Assembly (NCBI GenBank): GCA_965215515.1
Contig: OZ244057.1
Span: 576,001 to 640,000 of the forward strand
Direction: 5' to 3'
Origin: Oligoflexales bacterium
Lineage (GTDB): Bacteria; Bdellovibrionota_B; Oligoflexia; Oligoflexales; JAPPIL01
Length of the DNA: 64,000 bases
The position numbers were made by a program, and so were the translations under genes. The notes below the pieces were generated by a model that was given only the letters and a program-made list of their open reading frames with translations, made no database searches and was not told where the DNA came from. Below, piece after piece: positions 20,571-44,493 of this stretch (position 1 is the first letter of the stretch; the number at the start of each line of letters is the position of its first letter).

Positions 20571-20602
20571 ATGCCACAAATATTTTCCTGCCATACCTCC
20601 TT

Positions 20603-22438
20603 TTATGTAATAAGAACCTCAACTGGTATCTGTTCCTGAATCACCTTTGGAACTATCGCTAGGCCGATCTGAGAGCATTTTTCGTATATCCAGTTACTGT
20701 TGCCGCTAGATGTAACTAATATAGATCGGGCATGTAATTTCATTTGTTCGACAAAATCAATGCCCGTTAATTCAGAGTCTCCTAACTCGTTGTCTATCAA
20801 CAGGACGTAGTCCTCATCATTTTTCTCTAATTTCAGAATGATCTTTCTAGCTGACTTTAAATCCTTTGCATACACAGTTTTGATGTTGTTTTTCTCAAGA
20901 TCGAATCCAGCAAATCTTTTTTGCCAAACCTTATAGACAAGTGGATCGTCATCAACCACTACAACAGTCATATTCGCTGCGAATGCTAAGCTTGCTGGGT
21001 AGAGAATGTTTTCCTCTGCTTGTGGAATTAAAATCTCAATTGTTACTCCCTTGTCTTCTGGTGACTTGATATCGAGTGTGCCACCCCATTTGCTAACATC
21101 TTCGATGGCAGAAGAAAGGCCAACCCCTGTGCCATCCTTCTTGCCAATGGTTACACCTCTCTTACCCACCTTTTTCAGGTTCTCTGTGGCTATGCCTTTG
21201 CCATTATCGGAGATGACAATAGAAACCATACCACCGTCTGTGCTAACACGTGTCTTCACAAACCCTGCTGAGTCAATAGCCTCAATAGAGTTCTTATACA
21301 GATTGATGAGATCACGCTTGAATTTGTTCGGCTCTACCTCACAGTAGGAAGCAAAGCCATCGCCATCACAGCTAATATCAAATTTAATATCCTTACCTTC
21401 ACACAACTTCGACAGTTTGATCTCTCCGACGATTTGATAAATTAGAGCACTAACATGACAAGATCGCAGAATATCCTTAGGCTGATCTACTGAAACCTTA
21501 CTCATAGCTGCCAATCGCATTTCGTCTTCCGTCAAACTGCCAATCTTCGGTATATCAGTAACTGTGTTGCTGATTCTTTCAAAAACGGATTTTATGATTC
21601 CAACTTGAGCATCTTTTTGATCTAAACGATCTACAGCTGACTCTCCAATTACAAGAGAAGCGATAACGTCATGCCTTACTCTTGTTGCTACTTTGGCTAC
21701 TTGTGCTTTAGAAATTGCTCTTCTCGCAATAGCTTCGTTGCTCTTGCTCCTCTTGATGTACTTAAGGAGAATGGTGTTAAATTTGAAAATCTCTGAAAAC
21801 CTATTCAGTCCGTGATTAGACTCCAGAAACTTTTCCTTATTCGCATTCTTATCCAGCTCTTCAGAGTAATCATGAAGGGGAGTAGAGACACTTCTAGCTA
21901 GCCTCAGTATGTGTAAATATAGGTAAAGAGAAATTAAGGAAAATAGGATGCAAATTAAAGTGGCGAACCCCAAAATAGTCAGCACAGGAATTTGATAACC
22001 GACGTGAAGTATGCCTACTTCGGTATCGTGATAATAAATAGGCTCTGAAACCAAAACATGCGGCATCCCATTGTTCCAGTAATAGCTCTTGTTATTTATT
22101 TTTGCTAACTCTGTGGGATTCAGTCTCCTGTGATCAGAGATATAAACCTTTCCGCTGGGTAAAGTTATCCAAACATTCTTAAAGTTTCCCGACTTAACCA
22201 GTGTCTTTACAACTTGCGTAGGTAAAAAATCTCCGCCTAAAGCTACTGGCTGGCTTAAGCTTTTGCTGACAACTCCCAACGTCTGCAAGAGCTGACTGTG
22301 GTAGTAATAAGCACCAAATAGTAAGCCAACAAGGAAAGTGCTGACTGCACCAACGATAAATATCTTCAGCGATAACGCCTTTGCTTTTTTCTTAGCAAAG
22401 GCAATTATAGATTGAGGTTCATTAGGCTGATTTTGCAT
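20603..22438 (-). CDS. Membrane sensor histidine kinase with C-terminal receiver domain (hybrid)
   Basis: Two TM helices, H-box VRHDV, N-box NLYKNSIEA, DNGKG, GTGVGL, receiver VVVDDD...LIDNEL. Confidence 0.88.
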   Translation of the reverse strand: MQNQPNEPQSIIAFAKKKAKALSLKIFIVGAVSTFLVGLLFGAYYYHSQLLQTLGVVSKSLSQPVALGGDFLPTQVVKTLVKSGNFKNVWITLPSGKVYISDHRRLNPTELAKINNKSYYWNNGMPHVLVSEPIYYHDTEVGILHVGYQIPVLTILGFATLICILFSLISLYLYLHILRLARSVSTPLHDYSEELDKNANKEKFLESNHGLNRFSEIFKFNTILLKYIKRSKSNEAIARRAISKAQVAKVATRVRHDVIASLVIGESAVDRLDQKDAQVGIIKSVFERISNTVTDIPKIGSLTEDEMRLAAMSKVSVDQPKDILRSCHVSALIYQIVGEIKLSKLCEGKDIKFDISCDGDGFASYCEVEPNKFKRDLINLYKNSIEAIDSAGFVKTRVSTDGGMVSIVISDNGKGIATENLKKVGKRGVTIGKKDGTGVGLSSAIEDVSKWGGTLDIKSPEDKGVTIEILIPQAEENILYPASLAFAANMTVVVVDDDPLVYKVWQKRFAGFDLEKNNIKTVYAKDLKSARKIILKLEKNDEDYVLLIDNELGDSELTGIDFVEQMKLHARSILVTSSGNSNWIYEKCSQIGLAIVPKVIQEQIPVEVLIT

Positions 22439-23246
22439 AAGACCTCAAGTCTTCATAGAGAATCTGACCTAGTTCAGTAAAAGTCACACCGTCGTAAGTA
22501 TTGAGTGATTTTATGAAATCATCTCTCAATGAGTTCAATACCTGATTGTAATACTTTTGCTCTTTCTTATCAGGGGTAACTTGGGTCAGGAATCTAACCA
22601 TAAAAGCCAAAGCAACCGTCGCATGGAAAGCTTGAATTGCTGGTCTATATGTTTTTCTAACGTAAGAAAAAACAGGAATGTCTAGTCCCTGTGCAATTAT
22701 TGGGTCAGCTGTCTGATAGATGTAAAGGCATTGATGTCCTAGCTCATGAGCAATGTTAATGGCAAGCTCTAGTTTCTTATTCGGCACACTCAGAAAAACG
22801 CTACCTTTAGCTAGGTGTGTGCTAAAGCCGATGCCAGCACTGCGACTCTTCAGCTTGCTGATATTTATCGGTACAATATGCTTTACCACTTCGTCAAACA
22901 ACACCGAAACATCTTGATTGCTACTTCCCTGAACCAAATATACCGCGGTCTTGAGTGTTTCAAGCTCTTGAGAAGAGATATTGCCCAACGAAAGATTTTT
23001 ATCGTCTTTACCATAGAGGTATAGCTGCTCAAGTTTTTCAGAGATATTTTTGTCTAGCAAGATACGATCGTCTATCTCAAAGAGTGTGCTCAAGTCATGC
23101 AAATGCTCTAGGTTACTCATCCAAGGGGAATAGACTTTGTAGTTGGTACCTAGGACAGAGTTAACCAGCCTCACGGTCTTTACCTTGAAAGTACAGCTCA
23201 ACTCTTGAATCTTGGCCAATCCATATTTTCCAAAAAACCACTCCAT
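22422..23246 (-). CDS. HExxH-family peptide-modifying enzyme (alphaKG-HExxH beta-hydroxylase-like)
   Basis: GFSTHLAKGSVFL, IAHELGHQ (HExxH) and SYVRKTYRPAIQAFHA, matching the downstream SxxR...RP...H motif of RiPP-associated HExxH proteins. Confidence 0.72.
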   Translation of the reverse strand: MEWFFGKYGLAKIQELSCTFKVKTVRLVNSVLGTNYKVYSPWMSNLEHLHDLSTLFEIDDRILLDKNISEKLEQLYLYGKDDKNLSLGNISSQELETLKTAVYLVQGSSNQDVSVLFDEVVKHIVPINISKLKSRSAGIGFSTHLAKGSVFLSVPNKKLELAINIAHELGHQCLYIYQTADPIIAQGLDIPVFSYVRKTYRPAIQAFHATVALAFMVRFLTQVTPDKKEQKYYNQVLNSLRDDFIKSLNTYDGVTFTELGQILYEDLRSYAKSA

Positions 23247-23254
23247 TCACACCT

Positions 23255-24765
23255 CTAGTGTAGAACCGTGCGTTCTAAAAAGAAGGTGATGCCACCGTCT
23301 TGAACACCAACACTCTTAACCCGTTTTGAATTAACAGATACTAGCAATTTTTTTTCAAACAAAGGCACTAGCCATACATTGTCCTGTACGTATTGGGATA
23401 GTTTTTTTACAGCAGCTACCCTCTGCTCAAGTGTGTTTGAAAGTTGCGCTTTGTTAAACAAGTCCTCATACTCCTTATCGTGCAAGGGGAAGTGCGGCCG
23501 CTTAGGTGATTTTTCCCCTCTAAGCAAGCCAAATAAGATCAACGGATCAGCAACACCAGCACCGAGTGAAGTGAGACGAAACAGTGTATCTTTGTTGTCA
23601 GTTGGAAAGAACTTAACTGTTGACCGCACCAGTTTGATTTTTAAACCAACCAACGCAAGTTGTTTCACCAGTTCTCGAATATAACCTCCGTATTTTTCAT
23701 CATCCAAACTTCCGTAAAAACTGGGATCTCATACTGTTTAGTTAAGTCAAGGTTAGGCACGCTTTTTAGCAATTTTTTAGCTGCTTCTGTGTCTCTAACT
23801 ATCTTTACCTCTGTGCGCCCCCAAAAGTGCTGGGCTAGAAATTCGTGAGCTGGGGTATATGTCTCAACACCTTCAGCAATTTTATCTCTGTCGATGGCGA
23901 TGTTTATCGCTTTTCTAAACCTTATGTCGGCTGCTATTGGGTTGTTGAAATTGAAGTTAATACTGGTGAGACCAGCAGCACGCTTTGATATCACCATATC
24001 CATATCTTTCCTAGGAACTGTCATTTCAATATCAGCATTACGCAACTCGCTTCCGTAGTACAGCGCAATTTCTTTTGCTGAAGTCACATCACCTACCTTC
24101 TCCAAAATGAGAGTTTTTGCATCTCGATTGTGAGCTTTGACTTTGTAGTTGCCAGCTCCGATCGGCACATCCTTCCAAGCCTCGTAGTCATCTGTGAAAG
24201 CTTCGATAGGAACGATAGAAAAATACGGACTAGCTAAGGAATGTAGAAATAAAGGGTTAGGTTTTCTCAGTTTTACGCTCAGAGTTCTATCATCAATAAT
24301 TTCTATACCGCTTACCTTCCCACTAACAAATTTTGTACTCCCTTCTACAGCTTCAGTCCCCTCTATTTCATTAAGGAAAGGAACAAAAAATGATCTGCGG
24401 TTAGAGTAAAAGCCACGAAGAATAGAAAACTCTAAGTCCTTTGCAGTAACTTTACGACCGTTATGAAACTCAAGTCCTTTCCTTATTCTCAAGATGTATG
24501 CTTCTTTTTCGTAATCCCAGTTGAAGGATTCCAGCAATCCTGGTTTCAGATCGTAAGAGTTCGATGTATAAACAAGCTGCCCTAGTACCGGAACGACAGT
24601 TGCTCTTAAAACATCGACTGGTACATCTTTGACAAAAGGAACTTGTCCTCCTGAGTCTAACTGAACACGAAGCACATCTTGTTTCGATGCTGTTGCTGAC
24701 TTGCTTTCAGATGTTGATACTACTGTCATGATAATTCCCCAAGTTGTTAGCATAAAATAGAGCAT
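23255..24765 (-). CDS. ABC family-5 (peptide) solute-binding protein, split by a 1-nt frameshift near 23716-23720
   Basis: LKPGLLES, FHNGRKVTAKDLEFS, PIGAGNY, RFRKAINIAIDR, VWLVPLF. Adding one T to a T5 run joins ORFs 23665-24765 and 23255-23707. Confidence 0.8.
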
Positions 24766-24766
24766 A

Positions 24767-24973
24767 TCACCTTACATCATGTTCATGTCGAGAGTGAACA
24801 ATCAGGTCTTCTCTCAATATTGGCGTTGTTCTTTCTTTCAGCTTCTCCAAAATTTTTTTGCTTGCCATAATGGGAGGAGCAGTATCTGTAACTACAGGAT
24901 CAATAGCCCAGCCTTCATTTGTCTGAGAGAACCCCAGTGCTGCCGCCAACATCAGTAGTGTTTTCCTGAACAT
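24767..24973 (-). CDS. Secreted 68-aa peptide, putative signal/RiPP precursor
   Basis: Strong RBS (GAGGAGG); signal-peptide-like MFRKTLLMLAAALGFSQTNEGWA; His-rich C-terminus VHSRHEHDVR; packed tightly in the operon. Confidence 0.7.
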   Translation of the reverse strand: MFRKTLLMLAAALGFSQTNEGWAIDPVVTDTAPPIMASKKILEKLKERTTPILREDLIVHSRHEHDVR

Positions 24974-24988
24974 GATACCTCCTCTTAA

Positions 24989-26395
24989 TCAAACACCTCG
25001 ATTAGAAACTAAGCCAAGGCTTTTGCGTTTATGTATGTAAGTCGTATATGGTAAATCTATCAAGCGAGCCGCTTCTACACGTTTTCCATCGGCAAGCATC
25101 ATAGCCTTTTCGAGGTAGTCACGTTCCAAACGATTTCGTATCTTTTCGACGAACTCCTTATAGGTAGGAAAATCTTCTGGCCTTTCGATTTTTTTGAGTG
25201 ATAATCTGCTGTCATTGTTTTCAAACAAGCTTGAGAATGAAAAGCAATCAATAACGTTACCAGCTAGGGCGTAGGCTTTGCGTATCTCACTACTCAATTC
25301 CCTGACGTTTCCAGACCATGCACGGGTCTTTAAGATTTCTATCGCGTCATCAGTGATACGTTTTTGTGAACCGGTTTCTAAATTCTTTTTTTCGACGATA
25401 AATCTGGCAATTGGCTCGATGTCTTCTTTTCTCTCTGCTAGGGATGGCACATGTATGTGAAATATATTTAGCCGATAGTACAAATCTTCACGAAAATTGC
25501 CCTTCCTCACCTCGTCGAATAAGCTTTTGTTGGTGGCAGCAATAGCTCGAACATCAATCTTTGTTGATGTATTACTCCCGACTGGGACAACTTCTTGCTC
25601 CTGCAACACTCGGAGCAACTTAACTTGCATGTCGAGAGGCATTTCTCCGATTTCGTCTAAAAATATCGTTCCAGAGTCAGCAGCAACAAATTTCCCCGTT
25701 TTGTTTCTGTATGCTCCTGAAAAAGAACCTTTGGTGTGCCCGAACAACTCACTTTCAACAAGTTCTTTAGGAATAGCTCCACAGTTTATAGCGATGAAGT
25801 TGTTAGATTTTCTTTGCGAGTTGTTGTGAATTGAACGAGCTACCTGTTCTTTACCTACACCTGATTGGCCAGTAATAAGGACATTTTCACTGGCTTTAGC
25901 GTATTTATATACCTCTGTGGCAACGTTTGCTAAAGCGGAGGAATAGCCACGCAGGTTTAATACTTTTTGAATCCACCTATCGTTGGCCTCTTGCTCTTCA
26001 TTAGAGAGCTTGCCATATTTTATTCTCAATGACGCTATTTCAGAGATAAGCAGGATAACCTCTTTGCTCTTCTGCTTCAGGTAGGTGTGATCAGCTCCAG
26101 CTGAAGTACACAAGACCGATTCCTCGTGAGATAAGCACGCCGAGAGGATGACCGTATGCATCATGGGATCAATCCTCTTGATCGCTCTCACTACTTCGTC
26201 GCCTTTGGTAGGCATATCGAAGTCCACTATTGCCATCCGAAACGGCGTATCGTCTGCCTTAGCCTGTTCAATGGCGCGCAGAGCCTGTTCTGGATCGGTG
26301 AAGGTCGCTAAAGGAATCTGTCTTTCGCTGAAGAGTGTCCTAGTAGCCGTTAGGAACATCTCATCATCGTCGATAGCTATGACCCTTGGATTCAT
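24989..26395 (-). CDS. Sigma54-dependent response regulator (NtrC-like: receiver, AAA+, HTH)
   Basis: AIDDD/VDFDMP receiver, GQSGVGKE, ELFGHTKGSFSGA, FLDEIGEM, FREDLYYRL, WSGNVREL; ATG at 26395 with GGAGG RBS. Confidence 0.92.
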   Translation of the reverse strand: MNPRVIAIDDDEMFLTATRTLFSERQIPLATFTDPEQALRAIEQAKADDTPFRMAIVDFDMPTKGDEVVRAIKRIDPMMHTVILSACLSHEESVLCTSAGADHTYLKQKSKEVILLISEIASLRIKYGKLSNEEQEANDRWIQKVLNLRGYSSALANVATEVYKYAKASENVLITGQSGVGKEQVARSIHNNSQRKSNNFIAINCGAIPKELVESELFGHTKGSFSGAYRNKTGKFVAADSGTIFLDEIGEMPLDMQVKLLRVLQEQEVVPVGSNTSTKIDVRAIAATNKSLFDEVRKGNFREDLYYRLNIFHIHVPSLAERKEDIEPIARFIVEKKNLETGSQKRITDDAIEILKTRAWSGNVRELSSEIRKAYALAGNVIDCFSFSSLFENNDSRLSLKKIERPEDFPTYKEFVEKIRNRLERDYLEKAMMLADGKRVEAARLIDLPYTTYIHKRKSLGLVSNRGV

Positions 26396-26447
26396 GGTTT
26401 CCTCCGTGCTCAAGTAAACATTTTCGTCCGCAAAAGGCAGAGTGTAG

Positions 26448-26462
26448 GCAAAGTTCGTGCCA
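26448..26462 (-). promoter_or_regulatory. Sigma54 -24/-12 promoter of the signalling operon
   Basis: Minus strand TGGCACGAACTTTGC is a consensus match about 50 bp upstream of the regulator ATG. Confidence 0.8.
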
Positions 26463-26524
26463 AAACATATAACATCCTTAAATCACAGATTTTTTATGCG
26501 GAAGGGGAAACAGCAGTCAAATCT

Positions 26525-26540
26525 CTACAAGATGTTGTAG
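26525..26540. promoter_or_regulatory. Candidate enhancer (UAS) palindrome CTAC-N8-GTAG
   Basis: ctacaagatgttgtag; related sites at 26714-26729, 30963-30978 and 30987-31002. Confidence 0.55.
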
Positions 26541-26818
26541 CCCTCCAAGCTCAACTCCTCTAAGCAGGTCAACAAGCTATCCAGATAACTGGAAAAAGAG
26601 CGTATGCGATCGATCTGGTTATGGCTACAACTTTTTTTGTGGTTTATGGCAAAATCAGATTTAATTACTGATAAATTATTAAAACTAGGGGACTTATTTC
26701 TGAAAGTTGATTGCAACAAAAAGTTGTAGCTGCTGGGTTGAGGGGGGACTACCAGTCATGGCTGTTCTCCTCTTCCGAGGAGCTTGCGGTGCGAATGACG
26801 TGGATGATGGGCTTGTAG

Positions 26819-26866
26819 CGCAATATGTAACGCAGTATGTAACGCAATATGTAATTGAGCATGTAA
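26819..26866. repeat. 12-bp tandem repeat (three copies plus one degenerate)
   Basis: cgcaatatgtaa cgcagtatgtaa cgcaatatgtaa ttgagcatgtaa. Confidence 0.85.
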
Positions 26867-30817: not shown

Positions 30818-31065
30818 TAGCAAAACAACCATGCACACAACTAGTGGTACCCCGTAACTTGTTCTACAATATTTCACACTTTTTCCCATGAAAACTCAAA
30901 GTTTTTCTACCAATTTTCTCATCACACTATTCTGTTGAAATCATTGAATAGCCTAGTTTTCGCTACGAAACGTTGTAGATACATTTCTACGACACCTTGC
31001 AGAAGTTAATACTTAAAAAATTTCTTTCCAAGCAGTTCTAGTCGTTTAGCTAAAAAAGTAAATTT

Positions 31066-31122: not shown

Positions 31123-31594
31123 TATGAGCAACGCGCAAGGAAAGCCATGGCTGAACGAGGATGGCAGCACCAAGTCGGACGAGGAGTTGAGGGAGATTAC
31201 CCCGAACTGGGGGGAGAGTATTTGGGAAAAATACCTCTCTACATTTGAGGTTAAACAGAAAGAAGATTCTGTTTTATCACCTTCTATAGTGGACACCTTC
31301 TCCGCAGAGGAATGTGCCGGATTGTTATTTTCCCTAGCAAGTGAGGAGAAACATCTCTGCCTCAAGGTTGCGCTCAATGTCTGTATCCGTGAGCTTTCCC
31401 CCAGACAAAGGGACATCATTATTGGCTACTACTGGGATGGTAAAACGGTCAATGAAATGGCTGCAAGCATGGGGATCAGCACACAAGCTGTATACAAGGC
31501 TATGAGAGTGGCTTTAGCAAAGCTAAAGGCAAGCCTGACAAGTGGTTCGATGCAGAAGCGGATGATGGCAGCAAGAGAAATACTGGCCTCCTGA
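31123..31594 (+). CDS. Sigma70 region-4-type HTH regulator
   Basis: LSPRQRDIIIGYYWDGKTVNEMAASMGISTQAVYKAMRVALAKLK. Confidence 0.75.
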
Positions 31595-31689
31595 GGTTTA
31601 CAAAAGGTTGGTATTTAGTCTTTTTGGTTGGTTATTTCCCTATTAGTGAGGGGACAATTTTTTTAATCACCAATTTAGGAGGTCACATA

Positions 31690-31941
31690 ATGCCCGCAAA
31701 ATTTTCAGTTGAAGATCAGATTATCGCTAGGTCATTGTCGAGAAAGCTGCGTCCCAGACAGCGGAAGGCGATTGTGCTGCGATTTTGGTACGAGTACTCG
31801 ATTTTTGAGGTAGCCAAGTCCCTAAGGGTAAGCTGGGAGGATGCAGACAGAACCATTAAGGACGCACTGGCCAAGCTAAAGCAAGATTGTATGGAGCAGC
31901 CGCACTTCTCAAGAGCCTTGAAACTACCGTTTGCCGCATAG
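31690..31941 (+). CDS. Small sigma70 region-4-type HTH protein
   Basis: LRPRQRKAIVLRFWYEYSIFEVAKSL...ALAKLK; GGAGG RBS before ATG 31690. Confidence 0.7.
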   Translation: MPAKFSVEDQIIARSLSRKLRPRQRKAIVLRFWYEYSIFEVAKSLRVSWEDADRTIKDALAKLKQDCMEQPHFSRALKLPFAA

Positions 31942-31955
31942 TGCTAGGAGGGAAA

Positions 31956-32306
31956 ATGAAGGTGTTTGATGTTTTTAAGGGGCGTAAACGCAGAAGTGGC
32001 GACATAATCAAGATTCGTAGTGTTGGCTGTGGCTACTATAACCGCGCTACCAACACTTACGAGCTACAGATCAACGGGTTTGCCCCGAACAGCCACATCC
32101 TCAGGCCAGAGAAGGACATCGGAGCGAATAACGACTATGTGATCTATCACAAAAGTCCCTATGCCAGAGGCTTGCAGCAAGTCGGTGTCGGTCATCTCAT
32201 GAGCGGAGACAACGCAGGTCTAGTGCAACTTGAGTGGGACATCTATGGCAACACACACATCTACCTCAACCTGTCACGGGGTAAAACAGAAAGGAGGACA
32301 GCCTAG
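31956..32306 (+). CDS. Hypothetical ICE backbone protein
   Basis: AGGAGG RBS before ATG 31956; beta-rich ORF in the operon. Confidence 0.55.
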   Translation: MKVFDVFKGRKRRSGDIIKIRSVGCGYYNRATNTYELQINGFAPNSHILRPEKDIGANNDYVIYHKSPYARGLQQVGVGHLMSGDNAGLVQLEWDIYGNTHIYLNLSRGKTERRTA

Positions 32307-32359
32307 TCTAAATCTACGCTGGGAAGATTGTAAGGGGAAGTTCAGCTTAAATCTTAACA

Positions 32360-32716
32360 GTGAGGTATCGTATGCAAAACAAAACCAAGAACGAAACTCT
32401 TACTCTTGGTTGGCTTGATCCGAGAGACAACAGCGTCAATCACGCCGGAGTTAGCTTCTACAACCCTACCTACGGGGAGTATCTGCTGAAGATTGACGAA
32501 GAACCAAGCGAAAAACAATACTTCCTTAAACCCTCCTCTAGTGAGGGCGAGCACATTACCTACCGCATGGAGCTTGTGCTTAAACGTAAAGACGGACGCT
32601 TCCTAAAACGTCAACGTGTTGGCACTGGATATAGCAACGCAGAAACAGATGGCAATGTGCTTATCAACTACGGCTCGAAATTCAAAACTCTAGTGCTTTA
32701 TCTGAGAAATAAGTGA
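32360..32716 (+). CDS. Hypothetical ICE backbone protein
   Basis: Operon position; composition similar to the preceding ORF. Confidence 0.55.
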   Translation: MRYRMQNKTKNETLTLGWLDPRDNSVNHAGVSFYNPTYGEYLLKIDEEPSEKQYFLKPSSSEGEHITYRMELVLKRKDGRFLKRQRVGTGYSNAETDGNVLINYGSKFKTLVLYLRNK

Positions 32717-33003
32717 ACTCAAAAAAATTATGGGTAGTTTATCTTTCATGGTTTGCTGACACAGCTCTAGCGCAGTTTTGGGGTGGGAGTGGCTTTGAGG
32801 GTAAGATTAGATCGTTTACCGACAACCTGATGTCAGTCATTTTACCGGCGGTTGCCATACTTGGCTTACTTTACGCAGCTATGCTCGCTATCAGCGGTGA
32901 TGAAGGTGCAAAAAAACGCATGATCCTTGTGGTGGTGGCAAGTGTGATCGGATTTCTTGCTCCCCTGATCATTCGCTGGTTTCAATCAGCTGCTGTTGGA
33001 TGA
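32713..33003 (+). CDS. VirB2/TrbC-like pilin
   Basis: Signal peptide ending ALA plus two hydrophobic helices; directly before the virB3/virB4-like genes. Confidence 0.65.
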   Translation: MNSKKLWVVYLSWFADTALAQFWGGSGFEGKIRSFTDNLMSVILPAVAILGLLYAAMLAISGDEGAKKRMILVVVASVIGFLAPLIIRWFQSAAVG

Positions 33004-33322
33004 CATGATGGGAATCAACACTTCAGAGGTGCAGCGAAACTTAGATGCAAGGTTTAAGATCGGGGGTATTGAAGCCCTCGATCTACTGATAGCTCTGATA
33101 TGCAGTGCGATTATGAATCTGTTCTTCGGTGGCACAGCACTAGAGATTCCTCTAGTGCTTGGTTGTCCAGCACTCATTCTTGCGGGTTTTTACTTCGGTA
33201 AAAGGGGAAAACCAGAAAAATTTATGGTTCATCTTATTCACTTTTATTTAGAAGCGGGATTTTTCTCAGCAGGAGCAGAGCCAACAAAGTCTCTGCAAAT
33301 GCGAAGGAAGATTTATGCGTAG
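32996..33322 (+). CDS. VirB3-like membrane protein
   Basis: Two TM helices, about 105 aa, overlaps the VirB4 start. Confidence 0.6.
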   Translation: MDDMMGINTSEVQRNLDARFKIGGIEALDLLIALICSAIMNLFFGGTALEIPLVLGCPALILAGFYFGKRGKPEKFMVHLIHFYLEAGFFSAGAEPTKSLQMRRKIYA

Positions 33323-35738
33323 CCTCGCTAGTGAATTGGAGTTCTGGCACTTCGATGAAGACCTAATGGTTTTTAAAGATGGCTCACTCGGTGCAGGTTT
33401 TAAGCTGGCAGGGTTTGATATTACCTGTGCTACAGAGCAGGCTATCAATCAGATGAACAGAGGGCTGGAAAATTTGTTGATCTCTGCTGATGAGGGAATG
33501 AGGCTGCAAGTGTTTTACAAGCTGACACCGAATGTAACTGATCTTATAGATCAGCATCAAAAACTGTCTGGTTCTGTTACTGGTAATTATCAGCGAATTG
33601 CTGCTGCTCGTGTTAGGTTTTATCTCCAAAATCAAACTGACAAGAAATACTTTGTGCCTAACATTTTCTTTTTCATCCGTAGTAGACCCTATGCACTGAA
33701 AAAACAAAGTTTATTCGCATCAGATAAACAGTTTCAGCGGATTTCAAGAGAAGAGTTTGCTCGAAGGAAAGAGAGATTTCTCCGCTCTGTAAAGGGTATA
33801 GAGTCAGGTCTTGCTTCAGCGGCACTTGCTCCTAGCAGACTTAAACACGAGGAATGGTTCAATCTCATATTTGAATACCTGAACCTTGATCGTACAGAAA
33901 GGATCGGAGCAAGTTGTTACAAAGAGCCGCAAAGCTTTCTCAATCCCTCGGTCAGTGAACAGCTCACATTGACTGATTTCATTTGGGATAAGGACGCGAT
34001 AACGCTCGGCACATACATGTTTCGCACCATCACCCTTGCCACGCTGCCTGAAGGGCAGACATATGCAGCAATGGCTAACATGTTCGCTGCCGTGCCGTTT
34101 CATTTTTGGCTGAGCCAGTCCGTTCATCTGCTAGATCAGGCAAAGGCAAGGTCATCGCTGGAGATGAAACGCAGGATAGCACACTCAATGGCTTCGGGTA
34201 GCAAAAATGTTAGTGACTTAGATTCAGAAAACAAACTCGGACAGATCGAAGGCTTACTGGAGAATTTACTAGAGGGTTCAGAAAAGCTCGTATCATCTGA
34301 TTTCAATGTCATCATCTGGGGAAGAACCAAAAGTGAGCTAGACGATAAGACAGATGAAATCCTAAAAACCTTTCGCACATTGAATCAGGCAGAAGGGTTA
34401 CAAGAAACACTAGCAGGTAAAGAAGCTTTTTTTAAATCTATCCCCGGTGCTTGTCTAGGGATGCGGCACAAGAAGATGAAGTCCAGCAATGCTGTGCATC
34501 TGATGCCTGTCTTTGCTAGCTGGGCAGGTAATCCTAAACCAGTGTGTCTGCTGCCGACAAGAGATGGGCGGTTATTCTCGCTCGATCCCTATGCAGACCA
34601 CTTACCAGCTTGGAACGGTATCGTATTCGGCAGCTCAGGCAGTGGTAAAAGCTACACGATCGTGCAGTTGATGGCGATGTTTTACGGTAAGGTAAGCAAA
34701 GAAAACAGACCACGTATTGTCTGGATTGATAACGGTGCATCTTCAAAAAGACTAGTTGAGATATTAGATGGTGAGTTTTTAGACCTCGATTTGAACTCAG
34801 GTCTGTGTCTTAACATGTTCGATTTGAAAGAAGGAGAGATAACACCAAGTCCAGAGCGGATTCGTACAGTCTTAGCTGTCCTTGAGATGATTCTAAAAGA
34901 CGAAGATAAAAAAGCTCTCGGTAAGCGGGAGAAAGCTTTACTGGAAGAGCAAGTGCATAAGGTCTATGAGGATGCAAGTGGAAAGATACCTACTTTGTCA
35001 GATTTGAAAGAGTTGTTGGATAAACACAAAGATGCACAGATACGAAAGTTCGGTGAAATACTCTACAGCTGGACAGGAACATCAGCTTATGGACAGATGC
35101 TCGATGGACAAACCAACGTCAAACTCTCTAAAGACCTTGTTTCTATAGAGGTGCAGCATCTGAGCAACTATTCAGATCTGAAAGATGTCCTATTACTTCT
35201 TCTGACCTCTTACATTCAAGATGTGGCATCGTCTGATATTGGCAGGGAGTATCTGCTGATCATTGATGAGGCGGAGCGTCTGTTTCAGTCAGAGTTAGCA
35301 AGGCAAGTGGTAATTACCTGTTATCGCACTTGGCGCAAGTTCAAAAGCGGCATCTGGTGTTTGAGTCAGAACTACAAAGACTTTATGGCAGATAAAGCTC
35401 TTCGTGATGCTCTGATGACCAACACGACTAGCGTTATCATTCTGCGGCAGAGCAAGATTGATTGGAGTGATTTCAAAAAGACGTTCGATTTTAACGACAC
35501 ACAAGTGGAGCGTATCAAAAATCTGACAATCAAAAAGGGAGAATACAGTGAATTTTATTATCTGCAAGATGAGAACGAAGCGATCTTACGGCTTGTTCCT
35601 GAACCATTGAGTCACTGGTTTTCTACCTCAGATGCTAACGACAAGACCATGATTGCTAGTACAGAAAAACAGAATCCGAGTATGAGTAAGTTAGATGTTC
35701 TTAAATTGCTGGCTTCTCAACCTAAAAACAGGGGGTAA
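33315..35738 (+). CDS. virB4: VirB4/TraC-family T4SS ATPase
   Basis: GSSGSGKS Walker A, IDNGAS, IIDEAE Walker B, RTWRK, SQ motif; 807 aa. Confidence 0.85.
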   Translation: MRSLASELEFWHFDEDLMVFKDGSLGAGFKLAGFDITCATEQAINQMNRGLENLLISADEGMRLQVFYKLTPNVTDLIDQHQKLSGSVTGNYQRIAAARVRFYLQNQTDKKYFVPNIFFFIRSRPYALKKQSLFASDKQFQRISREEFARRKERFLRSVKGIESGLASAALAPSRLKHEEWFNLIFEYLNLDRTERIGASCYKEPQSFLNPSVSEQLTLTDFIWDKDAITLGTYMFRTITLATLPEGQTYAAMANMFAAVPFHFWLSQSVHLLDQAKARSSLEMKRRIAHSMASGSKNVSDLDSENKLGQIEGLLENLLEGSEKLVSSDFNVIIWGRTKSELDDKTDEILKTFRTLNQAEGLQETLAGKEAFFKSIPGACLGMRHKKMKSSNAVHLMPVFASWAGNPKPVCLLPTRDGRLFSLDPYADHLPAWNGIVFGSSGSGKSYTIVQLMAMFYGKVSKENRPRIVWIDNGASSKRLVEILDGEFLDLDLNSGLCLNMFDLKEGEITPSPERIRTVLAVLEMILKDEDKKALGKREKALLEEQVHKVYEDASGKIPTLSDLKELLDKHKDAQIRKFGEILYSWTGTSAYGQMLDGQTNVKLSKDLVSIEVQHLSNYSDLKDVLLLLLTSYIQDVASSDIGREYLLIIDEAERLFQSELARQVVITCYRTWRKFKSGIWCLSQNYKDFMADKALRDALMTNTTSVIILRQSKIDWSDFKKTFDFNDTQVERIKNLTIKKGEYSEFYYLQDENEAILRLVPEPLSHWFSTSDANDKTMIASTEKQNPSMSKLDVLKLLASQPKNRG

Positions 35739-35740
35739 CA

Positions 35741-36436
35741 CTGCAAAAGAAAGCTATTGGATTGTTACTAGTCTTTTCTCTTACTTCCTCTCCTGCACAT
35801 AGTTTCTGGGGAGATGGGGGTGCAGGGTGGGTACAGATACCATATCTGGTGAAAATTCTACTTGAGAACTACAAACGCTATCAGCAACTCAAGCTGATGA
35901 TGCAGCAAGCAAGAAGATCGGGTGATTATTTTAGGACAGTTCATCAAGGGTTAGAAAACATCACAGGTCTTTTAGACAGCTTGCCAATCACTGATCAGGG
36001 GGTACTTAAGGATTTACGAAGTTTTAACGGGTCACTCAAAACCATATCGCAAATCTACGGAAAAATACCCAGATCACCGGAAGAAGCACTGCATAGGCTG
36101 CATGACCAAACCGCGGCTGAATCACTACAGATGGTGAATTCATTTAAGGATTACTCGAAGGCACAGGAAAGCAACTCGCAATCGCTCAGGATTCAGAGCC
36201 AATCAGCTTCACCTAAAGGAGCTGCAAGGGCTACCGCGGTTTCCAATGCGATGATTTTGGAAAGTATCAATCAACTGATCCGCTTGCAAAGTCAAAGCCT
36301 GAAAATGCAAAGTGAGCAGCTAGCTATGTTGAATAGGCAGGATAAGAAAACTATCGCCTCCTATCAGGAGGTTGATAAAAGTATAGGCAGTGCCTTCAAG
36401 AATTTCAAACGCCAAGAAAAATTCGTAAAATTTTAG
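35741..36436 (+). CDS. VirB5/TrbJ-like exported protein
   Basis: Signal peptide and Gln-rich helical body. The frame extends to CTG 35741 after a GGGGG RBS-like run (ORF-track start 35762). Confidence 0.5.
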   Translation: MQKKAIGLLLVFSLTSSPAHSFWGDGGAGWVQIPYLVKILLENYKRYQQLKLMMQQARRSGDYFRTVHQGLENITGLLDSLPITDQGVLKDLRSFNGSLKTISQIYGKIPRSPEEALHRLHDQTAAESLQMVNSFKDYSKAQESNSQSLRIQSQSASPKGAARATAVSNAMILESINQLIRLQSQSLKMQSEQLAMLNRQDKKTIASYQEVDKSIGSAFKNFKRQEKFVKF

Positions 36437-37303
36437 ATGTTCGACCAGTTGGTAGGGGTAGCAAAAGATATTCGGGGGGAGACACTCGAACTTTACTGGT
36501 TACTTTTAACTCCGTTGGTGCTGTTACTCATCATACTGGAGTTTTTCAAGTATCAGAAAGACAGTATAGATGTTTTTGATATTATCAGACGAGTTGTCAT
36601 CTCGATGGTGCTGCTGTTTTCTTTTGAATATACGATCAATGCCCTTTCTACGATTGGGGATGGGATCGTTAGCAAAATAGATAAGACCGCTGATGTTTGG
36701 GATGTATTAAAAAATCTGGGGCCGAATTACCAAGACTCTTCCAGTGGGCTATTTGATATAAGAGGACACATTCTTTACACACTGGCACTGCTTTCTTATC
36801 TCATCGCCTACTTAGGATTTTTTGTCACCGATGCACTTGTTCACTTTGTCTGGATCGTTCTGTATACGGTATCACCCCTGATGATTTTAGCTTACGTTGC
36901 TAAAGCAACAGCTAACGTGACTGCGAACTTATACAAAGGGCTAGTTAAGGTAGTTATCTGGAAAATTATGTGGACGATTCTTGGTGCGCTGCTACTGAAA
37001 TTAGCCATGACCCCCCAGACAGGAGAGGACATGGAAGGCTACTTAGTAGCGATGATTACTAATCTGTGTATTGGACTCAGTATGCTTTTTATTCCTATCG
37101 CAACTCGTTCACTAATCAACGATGGATTGGAGAAGGCAGCATCAGCATTAGCCGTTGCTCCAGCAATAGCTGCGGTGAATACAGCAAAGGTCTACACCAA
37201 GAAAGCGGCTAGACGAGGTTCTGCGAAAGCATCGGGGACAGAACAACCAACTACTAAATCACAGGATAATCCTGTCAGAGAGAGTGTCGACAGGTTTAGG
37301 TAA
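36437..37303 (+). CDS. VirB6/TrbL-like polytopic membrane protein
   Basis: Five or six TM helices; SPLMILAY motif; operon position. Confidence 0.65.
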   Translation: MFDQLVGVAKDIRGETLELYWLLLTPLVLLLIILEFFKYQKDSIDVFDIIRRVVISMVLLFSFEYTINALSTIGDGIVSKIDKTADVWDVLKNLGPNYQDSSSGLFDIRGHILYTLALLSYLIAYLGFFVTDALVHFVWIVLYTVSPLMILAYVAKATANVTANLYKGLVKVVIWKIMWTILGALLLKLAMTPQTGEDMEGYLVAMITNLCIGLSMLFIPIATRSLINDGLEKAASALAVAPAIAAVNTAKVYTKKAARRGSAKASGTEQPTTKSQDNPVRESVDRFR

Positions 37304-37340
37304 GAGCACATAAATCAATTATTTTGGAGGAAACATTGCT

Positions 37341-44482: not shown

Positions 44483-44493
44483 GCTAATGCCCC
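44418..44493 (-). tRNA. tRNA-Ala (GGC)
   Basis: GGGGCAT-TA-GCTCAGTTGGTAGAGC-G-CGGCA-ATGGCAT-TGCCG-AGGTC-ATCGGTTCGATTCCGAT-ATGCTCC-ACCA; 76-nt cloverleaf with G3:U70 and encoded CCA. Confidence 0.97.

What the first reader, a model, noticed from the sequence alone, without database searches (positions are those of the whole stretch)
20603..26462. Putative modified-peptide quorum-sensing operon carried by an ICE
Seen: five tightly packed, co-oriented genes behind a consensus sigma54 promoter. In order: sigma54 response regulator, 68-aa secreted peptide ending IVHSRHEHDVR, family-5 peptide-binding protein, HExxH enzyme, hybrid histidine kinase. No ABC permease, radical SAM enzyme or RiPP exporter is present in the operon. 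Established: alphaKG-HExxH proteins hydroxylate RiPP precursors, and family-5 binding proteins can act as co-sensors for kinases. Inference: the peptide is modified and Sec-exported, bound by the binding protein, sensed by the kinase, and activates its own operon through sigma54. That would be an agr/com-like autoinducing loop built from parts I do not recognise as a described combination, in an apparently diderm host.
Basis: partly seen in the sequence, partly recalled or inferred. Interest (0 to 1): 0.9.

Follow-up and report, generated by a model that had tools for sequence, protein, structure and literature searches.

The report
Peptide-sensing switch on a conjugative element
A mobile DNA element in a relative of predatory bacteria carries a five-gene sensing circuit (secreted small protein, peptide-binding protein, hydroxylase, kinase, sigma-54 activator) that appears to switch on both itself and the element's DNA-transfer genes, although its binding-protein gene is broken in this genome.

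Summary
One point was missed: the family-5 binding-protein gene is split into two ORFs by a one-base frame change at a T5 run, while its closest relatives are intact at 488-492 aa.

The cassette is a conserved unit. Nineteen fetched loci from Bdellovibrionota carry it in the same order. Twenty of 21 loci with the regulator have an exact TGGCAC-N5-TTGC just upstream of it.

The small ORF is real. It has a signal-peptide-like N-terminus and a conserved C-terminal tail. Most relatives have a 147-170 aa form; the window's clade has 63-80 aa.

The HExxH protein passes the aKG-HExxH model cut-off, and its model matches ChlH.

New here: a 16-bp palindrome, CTACRA-N4-TTGYAG, occurs at only three places in the 2.18-Mb genome. 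One lies upstream of the cassette promoter. Two lie upstream of a second sigma-54-like promoter that heads the element's type IV secretion operon. A second clade uses a different palindrome at both promoters.

The circuit therefore looks like the element's transfer switch. Hydroxylation of the tail and its binding to the binding protein remain inferred.

The parts
26448..26462 (-). P1: sigma-54 promoter TGGCACgaactTTGC
   Evidence: Only exact match in the window. The same consensus lies 30-65 nt upstream of the regulator ORF in 20 of 21 regulator-containing loci.
26525..26540 (.). Proximal activator-binding palindrome CTACAAgatgTTGTAG, 63 nt upstream of P1
   Evidence: one of only 3 sites in the 2.18-Mb genome. 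Relatives have 2-3 such palindromes about 101 nt apart upstream of P1.
26625..26642 (-). Degenerate distal palindrome (CCACAA-N6-TTGTAG), about 100 nt upstream of the proximal one
   Evidence: Read. It sits where relatives have their second perfect palindrome. It does not match the exact pattern.
24989..26413 (-). NtrC-type sigma-54 response regulator (likely start ATG 26395, 468 aa)
   Evidence: REC + Sigma54_activat + AAA_lid_14 + HTH_8. GAFTGA-like GSFSGA at residue 223. 54-74% identical to the regulators of clade-1 loci.
24767..24973 (-). Small secreted protein (68 aa): signal-peptide-like N-terminus, variable linker, conserved C-terminal tail
   Evidence: Short homologues of 63-80 aa (P0064-66, P0136) and long ones of 147-170 aa share the tail.
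23665..24765 (-). Family-5 solute-binding protein, N-terminal ORF (366 aa)
   Evidence: PF00496 E 2.9e-37. Closest relatives are single ORFs of 488-492 aa.
23716..23720 (-). T5 run where the binding-protein frame changes
   Evidence: The upstream frame gives ..IPVF and the other frame gives YGSLDDEKYGG.. The relative P0068 reads ..IPIFYGSLNDEKYGS.. in one frame.
23255..23707 (-). Family-5 solute-binding protein, C-terminal ORF (150 aa)
   Evidence: matches the C-terminal third of relatives' binding proteins.
22422..23246 (-). aKG-HExxH-type enzyme (274 aa), no signal peptide
   Evidence: TIGR04267 45 bits, cut-off 40. H167/E168/H171/H208 invariant in 26 orthologues. Profile hits ChlH 8s5f at E 6.3e-6. 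AF2 pLDDT 92.3. Foldseek 8s5f E 2.5e-9, TM 0.66.
20603..22438 (-). Hybrid histidine kinase (611 aa): two membrane spans flanking a loop of about 100 aa, H-box, HATPase_c, C-terminal REC
30963..31002 (+). Two more copies of the palindrome (CTACGAaacgTTGTAG, CTACGAcaccTTGCAG) upstream of P2
31066..31081 (+). P2: sigma-54-like promoter TGGCACactccTTGTA (-12 reads GT, not GC)
   Evidence: Homologous positions in L002, L001 and L006 carry [TA]GGCAC-N5-[CT]TG[TA]A. L004, L010 and clade 2 carry TGGCAC-N5-T/C.GC forms.
31124..41796 (+). Conjugation operon headed by two small Sigma70_r4 proteins, with T4SS pilin, VirB4/TraC, TrbI/VirB10, a split FtsK-type coupling protein and a Replic_Relax protein
   Evidence: Homologous to the flanks of L002 and L010.
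44418..44493 (-). tRNA-Ala at the right edge of the low-GC island

Best explanation
The cassette is the sensory and regulatory module of an integrative conjugative element (ICE).

Supported by sequence:
- A host-sigma-54-dependent promoter (P1) drives the response regulator, a Sec-type secreted small protein, an orphan periplasmic family-5 peptide-binding protein, a cytoplasmic aKG-HExxH oxygenase and a membrane hybrid histidine kinase.
- The regulator's predicted binding palindrome lies upstream of P1 (self-activation).
- It also lies upstream of a second sigma-54-like promoter (P2) that heads the ICE's type IV secretion/transfer operon.

Inferred:
- The HExxH enzyme modifies the small protein's conserved C-terminal tail in the cytoplasm. 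Beta-hydroxylation of Pro, Asp, His or Phe is most likely; oxidative C-terminal trimming is possible.
- The protein is then exported by Sec.
- In the periplasm its tail, whole or clipped, is bound by the binding protein.
- The binding protein then docks on the kinase's roughly 100-aa periplasmic loop and sets the kinase/phosphatase balance.
- The regulator in turn fires P1 and P2.

The ICE would thus sense its own product, reading donor density or self versus non-self, before committing to transfer. Whether the signal turns transfer on or off cannot be told.

In this genome the binding-protein gene is frame-shifted and several ICE genes are split. Here the switch is probably signal-blind, or part of a decaying element.
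For: Conserved unit:
- All five genes occur in the same order in 19 fetched loci, about 10 distinct sequences, from Bdellovibrionia, Bacteriovoracia and Oligoflexia MAGs.
- A small ORF-binding protein-HExxH-kinase core persists in more distant loci.

P1:
- An exact TGGCAC-N5-TTGC lies upstream of the regulator in 20 of 21 regulator-containing loci.
- The host has an intact rpoN (452 bits).

Regulon:
- CTACRA-N4-TTGYAG gives 4 matches at 3 sites in the window, against 0.09 expected; 0 of 100 shuffles reach 4.
- The same 3 sites are the only ones in the whole 2.18-Mb genome; the reversed-pattern control finds 0.
- One site is upstream of P1 and two are upstream of P2.
- In L001, L002, L004, L006 and L010, palindromes with at most 1 mismatch cluster upstream of P1 and again upstream of the conjugation-side promoter. 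There are 6-12 matches per locus against 0.15-0.24 expected.
- Clade 2 uses a different palindrome, ACGAARNTTCGT. It is upstream of P1 in all 8 loci with a match, and a further site or two lies just upstream of the mapped P2 in L014, L027, L030 and L031.
- The operator therefore changes in parallel at both promoters.
- Genes behind P2 are conjugation genes.

Small protein:
- It has a basic and hydrophobic N-terminus ending in a small-x-small motif, read from the sequences.
- In the tail, Pro is invariant and Asp nearly so across 14 sequences.
- An [H/N]-x-F-type ending recurs in distant loci.
- In the Elusimicrobiota MAG L013 the small ORF lies directly upstream of the HExxH gene.

Enzyme. Family members hydroxylate His, Asp, Phe, Gln and Pro, and can cut a C-terminal motif oxidatively (passages of PMC13060819 and PMC12636437).

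Sec export after cytoplasmic modification has a precedent in the bufferins (PMC11626156 passages).

Binding protein:
- The closest solved relatives are peptide binders, PrgZ among them.
- No Opp-type permease or ATPase genes lie in the scanned flanks of 11 loci.
Against: - No test here shows hydroxylation, export, peptide-binding-protein contact or binding protein-kinase contact.
- The window's binding-protein gene is broken. So are those of two relatives, at other positions: P0085+P0117 on one contig, and P0077.
- P2 in the window lacks the canonical -12 GC (TTGT).
- The cassette encodes a hybrid kinase but no HPt protein, so phosphotransfer to the regulator is unexplained.
- The most conserved part of the small protein is the presumed core rather than a leader. 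That is unusual for RiPP precursors.
- His in the tail is not invariant (Ala in L002 and L006).
- Two loci with the core (L072, L077) showed no convincing small secreted ORF.
- Many loci are near-duplicates or kin, so the counts overstate independence.
Confidence: 0.5

Rival explanations
1. The binding protein and kinase sense an outside ligand, such as peptides from recipient or prey cells or a metal-peptide complex. The small secreted protein and the HExxH enzyme are accessory. The tail might be a tethered competitor or adaptor that sets the threshold, or the enzyme might act on the binding protein or the kinase. The wiring to P1 and P2 stays the same.
For: - Family-5 binding proteins bind many outside ligands and can gate a hybrid kinase. 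CBP-ChiS of Vibrio cholerae is an example (listing and abstract starts of PMC12704726 and 10.1101/2020.01.10.902320).
- The binding protein gives weak NCBIfam hits to nickel and opine-metal binders as well as Opp and Dpp.
- Binding protein, enzyme and kinase genes overlap or abut, which suggests coupled production.
- Two binding protein-kinase pairs without HExxH also lack the small ORF (L080, L082). The pair can therefore exist without them.
Against: - The small ORF with its tail is kept next to the core across deep divergence.
- In L013 it lies directly beside the enzyme gene rather than the binding protein.
- Known aKG-HExxH substrates are all small precursor peptides.
- No outside ligand is suggested by any neighbouring gene.
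Confidence: 0.22
2. The cassette makes a periplasmic modified peptide or small protein with a function of its own: bufferin-like metal buffering, or an antimicrobial or entry-exclusion factor. The two-component system only regulates its production.
For: - Sec-signal RiPP precursors of 60-120 residues that stay in the periplasm are known (bufferins, PMC11626156 passages).
- The window's tail is His- and acid-rich (HSRHEHDVR).
- Beta-hydroxy-Asp and beta-hydroxy-His are metal ligands in siderophores (recalled, not checked).
- Metal-efflux genes flank some loci (L004, L014).
Against: - It leaves the orphan peptide-binding protein, welded to the kinase in every locus, without a role.
- It does not explain why the regulator's operator also sits in front of the conjugation operon.
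- The His-rich ending is peculiar to the window. Relatives end ..YSRHSFIR or ..FRDHSFA.
Confidence: 0.12
3. The HExxH protein works here as a peptidase, or on another substrate, rather than as a hydroxylase of the tail. It might clip the small protein or process another cassette protein.
For: - The fold is zincin-like.
- PflC shows hydrolytic cleavage when the leader is missing (abstract and passages of PMC12636437).
Against: - The best structural and profile matches are the aKG-dependent ChlH and SjiH, with ordinary zincins far behind at E > 0.2.
- The protein has no signal peptide, so it cannot process anything in the periplasm.
Confidence: 0.08

Closest known systems
aKG-HExxH RiPP oxygenases (ChlH domain of ChlB, BpmH, PflC/PosC, PesO)
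   Same: Passes the family HMM. HExxH plus a downstream His are invariant. The fold is ChlH-like. It is encoded next to a small ORF whose conserved residues (Pro, Asp, His, Phe) are of the kinds this family hydroxylates.
   Different: About 17% identity to ChlH. No radical SAM, MNIO, protease or exporter partner. The presumed substrate carries a Sec-type signal peptide. The gene sits inside a two-component sensing operon on an ICE rather than a natural-product cluster.
LuxP-LuxQ-LuxU-LuxO of Vibrio (recalled; LuxO NCBIfam model hit, 250 bits, below its 800-bit cut-off)
   Same: Periplasmic binding protein plus membrane hybrid kinase plus NtrC-type sigma-54 regulator reading a self-made signal.
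   Different: The binding protein is family 5 (peptide type), not LuxP type. No HPt protein is in the cassette. The signal would be gene-encoded and enzyme-modified. The regulator is not a LuxO equivalog.
CBP-ChiS chitin sensor of Vibrio cholerae (listing and abstract starts)
   Same: A family-5 periplasmic binding protein controlling a hybrid sensor kinase.
   Different: The ligand there is an outside sugar and ChiS binds DNA itself. Here a separate sigma-54 regulator is used and the ligand is probably the cassette's own product.
Peptide-controlled conjugation in Firmicutes: pCF10 PrgZ/PrgX, ICEBs1 RapI-PhrI, pLS20 Rap-Phr (recalled; PrgZ appears among solved relatives; pLS20 paper PMC7641744 seen as listing and abstract start)
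   Same: A mobile element encodes a Sec-exported signal precursor whose C-terminal part is the signal. pCF10 also has a family-5 binding protein. The output is the transfer operon.
   Different: Those peptides are imported by Opp and act on cytoplasmic receptors. Here there is no permease and the read-out is a membrane kinase and sigma-54. The signal is probably enzymatically oxidised. The host is a diderm.
agr / com autoinducing-peptide loops
   Same: The signal gene, sensor kinase and regulator sit in one self-activated operon.
   Different: No AgrB- or ComAB-type processing exporter. The kinase does not look like a direct peptide receptor, because a binding protein is interposed. The promoter is sigma-54 type.
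Bufferins (Sec-exported MNIO-modified RiPPs; PMC11626156)
   Same: A long precursor with a Sec signal peptide, modified by a cytoplasmic non-haem iron oxidase and then exported by Sec in diderms.
   Different: A different enzyme family and chemistry. Bufferins are metal buffers, not linked to a binding protein-kinase pair.

Membership tests
aKG-HExxH peptide beta-hydroxylase (TIGR04267 / IPR026337) | Scores above the curated family HMM cut-off | tested here: met
   45.0 bits against a 40-bit cut-off, residues 121-264. The same place is found in the genome search at 45.9 bits.
aKG-HExxH peptide beta-hydroxylase (TIGR04267 / IPR026337) | HExxH iron-binding motif conserved, with a further downstream His | tested here: met
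   H167, E168, H171 and H208 are invariant in 26 orthologues. They align with HEHRH and LHA of ChlH. Which residues bind iron and aKG in ChlH was not read from the primary paper.
aKG-HExxH peptide beta-hydroxylase (TIGR04267 / IPR026337) | ChlH-type fold | tested here: met
   AF2 model pLDDT 92.3. Foldseek top hits 8s5f chains at E 2.5e-9, TM 0.66, then SjiH 22ob at E 4e-6. The next rows have E > 0.2.
aKG-HExxH peptide beta-hydroxylase (TIGR04267 / IPR026337) | Fe(II)/aKG-dependent oxidation of a neighbouring precursor peptide | not testable with these tools
   Needs co-expression or an in vitro assay with mass spectrometry.
NtrC-type sigma-54 response regulator with its promoter | REC + AAA+ sigma-54 activation domain with GAFTGA-type loop + HTH_8 | tested here: met
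   Pfam domains. GSFSGA at residue 223.
NtrC-type sigma-54 response regulator with its promoter | -24/-12 promoter, upstream palindromic activator sites, host rpoN | tested here: met
Family-5 (cluster C) peptide-binding protein of an ABC importer | SBP_bac_5 domain in one intact ORF | tested here: not met
   The domain is present, but the ORF is split at 23716-23720. Relatives are intact.
Family-5 (cluster C) peptide-binding protein of an ABC importer | Adjacent Opp/Dpp-type permease and ATPase genes | tested here: not met
   None in the window's operon or island. None in the flanks of the 11 relatives whose ORFs were scanned.
RiPP biosynthetic cluster | Precursor with leader and core, modifying enzyme, dedicated protease and/or exporter | tested here: inconclusive
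   A precursor-like ORF and an enzyme are present. There is no protease or exporter, and a Sec-type signal peptide stands instead. Modification is untested.
agr/com-type autoinducing peptide quorum sensing | Signal gene inside the operon that its own regulator activates | tested here: met
   By sequence only: the small ORF lies behind P1, which carries the regulator-type palindromes.
agr/com-type autoinducing peptide quorum sensing | Dedicated processing exporter, and a kinase that binds the peptide directly | tested here: not met
   No AgrB- or ComAB-like gene is present. A binding protein is interposed.
agr/com-type autoinducing peptide quorum sensing | Density-dependent response to the secreted product | not testable with these tools
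   Needs culture and reporter work.
Integrative conjugative element | T4SS, coupling protein, relaxase-type protein and recombinase inside a compositionally distinct island at a tRNA | tested here: inconclusive
   - GC is about 43% against about 55% in the flanks.
- tRNA-Ala lies at the edge.
- Pilin, VirB4/TraC, TrbI and Replic_Relax genes are present.
- The coupling protein and serine recombinases are in pieces.
- No repeat of the tRNA end of 13 nt or more was found.
This looks like an ICE or its decaying remnant.

The most novel reading that the evidence does not exclude
A peptide-pheromone system in diderm bacteria. An ICE-encoded small protein is oxidised on its C-terminal tail by an O2/Fe/aKG-dependent HExxH enzyme and leaves by Sec. 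In the periplasm it is read by an orphan Opp-like binding protein and a hybrid kinase, and it licenses (or vetoes) conjugative transfer through sigma-54. The element would thus count its own carriers, and would gate the signal on oxygen and metabolic state. It would be a functional counterpart of enterococcal and Bacillus pheromone-controlled conjugation, built from unrelated parts.
Probability: 0.35. Interest if true: 0.9.

Novelty: new variant of a known kind. Interest (0 to 1): 0.78.

Why it matters
Gene-encoded peptide signals that control conjugation are textbook for Firmicutes. They are essentially undescribed for diderm bacteria, where acyl-homoserine lactones fill that role.

This cassette gives a concrete candidate with clear, testable parts:
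- a defined operator and two promoters;
- a short conserved tail;
- an enzyme of a family known so far only from natural-product pathways;
- an orphan binding protein.

If confirmed, it would do three things:
- It would widen the biology of aKG-HExxH enzymes from antibiotic-like RiPPs to signalling.
- It would add a new input type for sigma-54 regulators.
- It would show how ICEs of predatory and related bacteria decide when to transfer.

Six literature searches found no description of this gene combination. The library lacks most subscription-journal papers, and the founding ChlH paper could not be read.

Tried and rejected
- Complex prediction: the intact L001 binding protein (residues 27-506, alignment A2) with its cognate tail (residues 121-160, alignment A3) gave no verdict. 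The score was 0.00 and controls were not run. This counts neither for nor against binding.
- Reads at the frame change: eight holder runs were listed and none is on record as RNA. Contigs of X1, X2, X3 and X5 laid on 20500-26600 left 23716-23720 uncovered. Sequencing error versus real mutation is therefore unresolved.
- X5, from a second study, holds short identical pieces between 23867 and 25642 only.
- Atlas search with the 160-aa small protein: no usable feature hit, and structural rows all under TM 0.4.
- AF2 of the 160-aa form reached only pLDDT 60.8, so no fold search was made with it.
- Pfam and NCBIfam find nothing for the small protein.
- Earlier notes of this scan: none for this genome.
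- A direct repeat of the tRNA-Ala end, to fix the island's borders: nothing of 13 nt or more.
- Exact TGGCAC-N5-TTGT as a conserved P2 form in the loci: only one unrelated match. The conserved feature is TGGCAC with a variable -12 element.
- Terminator and sigma-70 promoter scans of 20300-27000 were at or below shuffle expectation.
- Covariation of the tail with the sensor domains was not attempted, because there are too few independent sequences.

Full report
**What is in the sequence**

The finding lies on the minus strand.
- Response regulator: 26413..24989, with REC, Sigma54_activat (E 3.7e-68), AAA_lid_14 and a weak HTH_8. An ATG at 26395 behind a GGAGG is the likelier start.
- Small ORF: 68 aa, 24973..24767, 15 nt further on.
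- Family-5 binding-protein gene: starts 1 nt after the small ORF.
- HExxH protein: 274 aa, 23246..22422, 8 nt after the binding-protein gene ends.
- Histidine kinase: 611 aa, 22438..20603, overlapping the HExxH gene by 17 nt.
- TGGCACgaactTTGC at 26448-26462 is the only exact sigma-54 consensus in the window. One such match is not improbable by chance (0.27 expected).
- No permease, radical SAM or exporter gene lies in the operon.

The binding-protein gene is two overlapping ORFs, 24765..23665 (366 aa) and 23707..23255 (150 aa). The frame changes at a T5 run at 23716-23720.
- The upstream frame ends ..YEIPVF. The other frame continues YGSLDDEKYGG.. The 84%-identical relative P0068 (491 aa) reads ..YEIPIFYGSLNDEKYGS.. 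in one frame.
- Nine of the ten closest relatives, P0068 to P0077 at 66-84% identity, are single ORFs of 488-492 aa. The tenth, P0077, is 311 aa.
- Further down the list, one contig carries its gene in two pieces (P0085 and P0117), broken at yet another position.

**The cassette is a conserved unit**

The HExxH protein has 59 homologues at E <= 1e-3. Those that carry names are from Bdellovibrionaceae or Halobacteriovorax, or are called HEXXH-motif or aKG-HExxH proteins. Scans with the protein and with an alignment of 26 orthologues fetched 33 loci.

BLAST of the window's proteins against all their ORFs, plus inspection of the gap between regulator and binding protein, gave the following.
- Nineteen loci have all five genes in the window's order. 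They represent about ten distinct sequences, since many are the same contig fetched twice or near-duplicates.
- Two more loci are cut by a contig end but are collinear as far as they go.
- L020, L021 and L033 have small ORF-binding protein-HExxH-shorter kinase, without an adjacent regulator.
- The remaining short contigs hold binding protein-HExxH or HExxH-kinase pairs.

A second scan with a binding-protein alignment added more full cassettes (L066, L070, L071) and more cores (L073, L074, L077, L079, and L072 from a Bradymonadales MAG).
- Only two related binding protein-kinase pairs lack HExxH (L080, L082). Both also lack a small secreted ORF.
- In the Elusimicrobiota MAG L013 the order differs, but a small ORF ending ..THSDLTDHSFSK lies directly upstream of the HExxH gene.
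- L072 and L077 showed no convincing small secreted ORF.

**The small protein**

Each small protein begins with one to three basic residues and a run of 10-14 hydrophobic or Ala-rich residues. A small-x-small motif follows, for example EGWA|I in the window, VLA|S in L001 and AYA|H in clade 2. That is the pattern of a type I Sec signal peptide. No predictor was available, so this is read from the sequences.

Most relatives are 147-170 aa. The window's clade is short, at 63-80 aa (P0064, P0065, P0066, P0136).
- P0065 and P0066 report the same longest-contig lengths (30299 and 10608) as intact binding proteins P0071 and P0074 and HExxH proteins P0002 and P0003.
- The short form therefore probably sits in intact cassettes. 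This is an inference from contig lengths only.

All forms share the C-terminal tail. Examples:
- window: ..ILEKLKERTTPILREDLIVHSRHEHDVR
- L001: ..ILKRLKENSTPVLREDQILYSRHSFIR
- clade 2: ..IMDGLLRNVSPNIGNDIALFRDHSFA

In the 14-sequence alignment the tail Pro is invariant and the Asp is nearly so. An [H/N/S]-x-F ending within a few residues of the C-terminus recurs in distant members (L013, L021, L033, L073, L074, L083, P0143, P0146). His is replaced by Ala in L002 and L006.

A profile of the family finds only 31 cluster representatives at E <= 1e-3 among 1.84 billion. Three of these are giant proteins that repeat the middle domain. AF2 models the middle part (residues 45-115) at pLDDT 70-82 and the tail at about 50. 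That fits a folded domain with a flexible tail.

**The enzyme**

- TIGR04267 scores 45 bits against a cut-off of 40.
- H167, E168, H171 and H208 are invariant in 26 orthologues.
- The profile finds one solved structure, ChlH (8s5f), at E 6.3e-6. HELGHQ aligns to HEHRHQ and FHA to LHA.
- The AF2 model (pLDDT 92.3) matches 8s5f at E 2.5e-9 and TM 0.66. SjiH follows, and ordinary zincins trail at E > 0.2.
- The protein has no hydrophobic N-terminus, so it should be cytoplasmic.

From passages read in two van der Donk papers: this family beta-hydroxylates His, Asp, Phe, Gln and Pro, and PflC/PosC also remove a C-terminal tetrapeptide oxidatively (PMC12636437; PMC13060819). The founding ChlH paper (Nat Chem 2024) was seen only as a citation. 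Modification in the cytoplasm followed by Sec export has a precedent in the bufferins (PMC11626156 passages).

**Binding protein, kinase and regulator**

- The binding-protein profile is closest to solved peptide binders: 8upi, OppA, DppE, MppA, DppA, and PrgZ at E 7.5e-18.
- No Opp-type permease or ATPase gene lies in the window's island or in the flanks of the 11 loci whose ORFs were scanned. L006 has an unrelated MacB-type set.
- The kinase has hydrophobic spans at about 24-46 and 150-178 around a loop of roughly 100 aa. It has an H-box (RVRHDV) at residue 256, an HATPase_c domain and a weak C-terminal receiver.
- No HPt protein is encoded in the cassette.
- The regulator has a GSFSGA loop.
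- The host has an intact rpoN.

**Promoters and operators, the main new result**

An exact TGGCAC-N5-TTGC lies a few tens of bases upstream of the regulator in 20 of 21 regulator-containing loci. The exception, L019, has its only match on the other strand.

Upstream of P1, the window and clade-1 loci carry a 16-bp palindrome, CTACRA-N4-TTGYAG.
- In the window it gives 4 matches at 3 sites, against 0.09 expected; 0 of 100 shuffles reach 4.
- The same 3 sites are the only ones in the whole 2.18-Mb genome; a reversed-pattern control finds 0.
- One site (26525-26540) is 63 nt upstream of P1.
- A degenerate copy lies about 100 nt further up. Relatives have perfect copies about 101 nt apart.
- The other two sites (30963-30978, 30987-31002) lie 64-103 nt upstream of TGGCACactccTTGTA at 31066-31081. 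That element is 44 nt before the ATG (31124) of a Sigma70_r4 protein.
- This gene heads a tightly packed 15-ORF block ending at 41796. The block contains a T4SS pilin, VirB4/TraC, TrbI/VirB10, an FtsK-type coupling protein and a Replic_Relax protein.

Relatives show the same arrangement. With at most one mismatch, palindromes cluster upstream of P1 and again on the conjugation side:

| Locus | Palindromes upstream of P1 | Palindromes on the conjugation side | Other |
|---|---|---|---|
| L001 | 4181, 4271, 4372 | 11309, 11351, 11407 | none |
| L002 | 4190, 4279, 4380 | 2434, 2458 | 15034 (stray) |
| L004 | 3201, 3291, 3392 | 9801 | none |
| L006 | 3292, 3392 | 1676 | none |
| L010 | 1930, 2031 | 8426 | 7905 (inside the kinase gene) |

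These are 6-12 matches per locus against 0.15-0.24 expected.

The conjugation-side sites precede the following elements:
- TGGCAC-N5-[CT]TG[TA]A in L001 and L006;
- AGGCAC-N5-TTGTA in L002;
- TGGCACaggttTGGCT in L004;
- TGGCACcaaccGTGCA in L010.

The genes behind them are homologues of the window's transfer operon in L002 and L010.

Clade 2 (L012/27/28, L014/29, L015/30, L031) uses a different palindrome, ACGAARNTTCGT.
- It is upstream of P1 in all eight loci: two sites in L014 and L029, three in the other six.
- One or two further sites lie downstream of the kinase gene in each locus.
- P2 itself, TGGCAC-N5-T[CG]GCT about 230 nt (730 nt in L027) beyond the kinase stop, was mapped in L014, L027, L030 and L031, where these further sites lie just upstream of it.
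- In L014 and L027, P2 reads towards a TrwB-type coupling-protein gene.

The operator thus differs between clades but changes in parallel at both promoters. That is what one expects if the cassette's own regulator serves both. In the window the -12 element of P2 is GT rather than the canonical GC.

**Context**

- The window's flanks are about 55% GC. Positions from about 4 kb to 44.5 kb are about 43% GC and end at a tRNA-Ala.
- Besides transfer genes, the island carries two AbiE pairs, a DruE-like helicase, RmuC and serine-recombinase pieces.
- The coupling protein is split, with FtsK_SpoIIIE profile positions 29-57 and 92-137 in successive ORFs. There is no homopolymer at the junction.
- The flanking DnaE (1163 aa) and ArgRS (587 aa) are whole. 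The island therefore looks like a decaying ICE, although assembly error is not excluded.
- ArgRS is 82-83% identical to two Oligoflexales MAG chromosomes, so the host belongs to Bdellovibrionota.
- The HExxH orthologue is absent from both same-genus genomes searched. It was found in 6 of 131 genomes of the phylum set at E <= 1e-20, the window's own included. That fits horizontal arrival.
- Conjugation-type genes also flank the cassette in L001, L002, L010, L014 and L027.
- The regulator-less cores sit in ordinary chromosomal surroundings, for example L021 in a Peredibacter chromosome.

**How it most likely works**

Supported by sequence:
- a sigma-54 operon that carries its own activator;
- operator sites at that operon and at the ICE's transfer operon;
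- a cytoplasmic aKG-HExxH enzyme;
- a secreted small protein with a conserved tail;
- an orphan periplasmic peptide-type binding protein;
- a membrane hybrid kinase.

Inferred:
- the enzyme oxidises the tail before Sec export;
- the tail, whole or clipped, is the binding protein's ligand;
- the loaded binding protein acts on the kinase's periplasmic loop;
- the kinase controls the regulator.

My rough odds for the separate steps: wiring 0.8, tail as enzyme substrate 0.55, tail as binding-protein ligand 0.4. The sign of the response cannot be told. Element-encoded signals in Firmicutes include both activators and vetoes (recalled). In this genome the broken binding-protein gene should leave the circuit blind. 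Occasional slippage on the T run might give some full-length product, but that is speculation.

**Rivals**

- The binding protein and kinase may read an outside ligand, with the small protein and enzyme as accessories.
- The small protein may be a periplasmic product with its own function, as bufferins are.
- The enzyme may act as a peptidase or on another substrate.

Each fits some facts (see the rival entries). None explains as well the joint conservation of tail, enzyme, binding protein and kinase together with the shared operator at the transfer operon.

**Comparison and novelty**

- In architecture it works most like LuxPQ-LuxO (binding protein + hybrid kinase + sigma-54 regulator; recalled) and like CBP-ChiS.
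- In biological logic it works most like pheromone- or Phr-controlled conjugation (PrgZ; pLS20 abstract start; the rest recalled).
- It is a member of none of these. There is no HPt, no permease and no cytoplasmic receptor, the binding-protein class differs, and the signal is gene-encoded and probably oxidised.
- The enzyme is a member of the aKG-HExxH family, but in a setting not reported for it.
- Six literature searches found no description of the combination.
- I rate it a new variant of a known kind: signal-controlled conjugation, built from different parts.

**Limits**

- Many loci are kin or duplicates.
- Signal peptides were judged by eye.
- The complex prediction gave no verdict.
- The reads did not cover the frame change.
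- No expression data were available.

Noticed in passing
window 26814-26861 and 26891-26919: Three to four tandem 12-nt units (TGTAACGCARTA) lie just upstream of a near-consensus sigma-70-type promoter (TTGACA-17-CATAAT, 11 of 12). That promoter faces the AbiEi/AbiEii pair at 26951-28386. The units may be the antitoxin's operator. They lie between the cassette's upstream region and the AbiE genes.
   Followed up: partly
window 12801-20570: Island cargo looks like anti-phage defence. A 1415-aa helicase scores 533 bits on the Druantia DruE model and has DEAD, Helicase_C and MZB domains. A 718-aa protein without a family precedes it, and an RmuC-family protein follows. A second AbiEi-like gene lies at 6009-6776.
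   Followed up: partly
window 39578-41036; 7941-12145; 43668-44482; 5168-5659: Several island genes are in pieces: the FtsK-type coupling protein (two overlapping ORFs), large serine recombinases (Resolvase, Zn_ribbon and three Recombinase fragments) and a DNA methylase fragment. Flanking housekeeping genes are whole. The coupling-protein junction has no homopolymer run.
   Followed up: partly
relatives: P0085 + P0117 (one contig), P0077: Two other members of the window's clade also have broken or truncated binding-protein genes, each at a different position. Either these long assemblies carry indel errors, or the receptor is lost repeatedly, as signal-blind variants are in other signalling systems.
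   Followed up: no
L001 11540-11610; L006 1440-1490 (minus strand): Between the conjugation-side promoter and the first Sigma70_r4 gene there is a long GC-rich hairpin followed by a T run. It looks like a leader terminator or attenuator. The window has only a weak palindrome there, at 31078-31121.
   Followed up: no
L014, L027, L030, L031 just upstream of P2: Two extra TTGGCA repeats, 9-10 nt apart, precede the TGGCAC of P2 (..TTGGCAtagTTGGCAttaTTGGCAC..). That is a tandem array of -24-like elements.
   Followed up: no
P0138 (1628 aa), P0147 (1273 aa), P0148 (1611 aa): The middle domain of the 147-170 aa small proteins recurs 6-14 times in three giant proteins of unknown kind. Their Pfam hits are scattered, low-complexity-type matches only.
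   Followed up: partly
window 20892-20953: In three runs of one study a 1948-nt contig follows the window up to 20953, inside the 3' part of the kinase gene, and then continues with unlike sequence. It also has T>C at 20922. A variant or a second context of this stretch seems to exist in the same samples.
   Followed up: no
window 55225-62182: Four consecutive chromosomal genes encode DUF285 repeat proteins of 314 to 1100 aa.
   Followed up: no
flanks of L001, L002, L020, L027: A small Glyoxalase/VOC-family gene lies within a few hundred bases of the cassette in four otherwise different loci.
   Followed up: no
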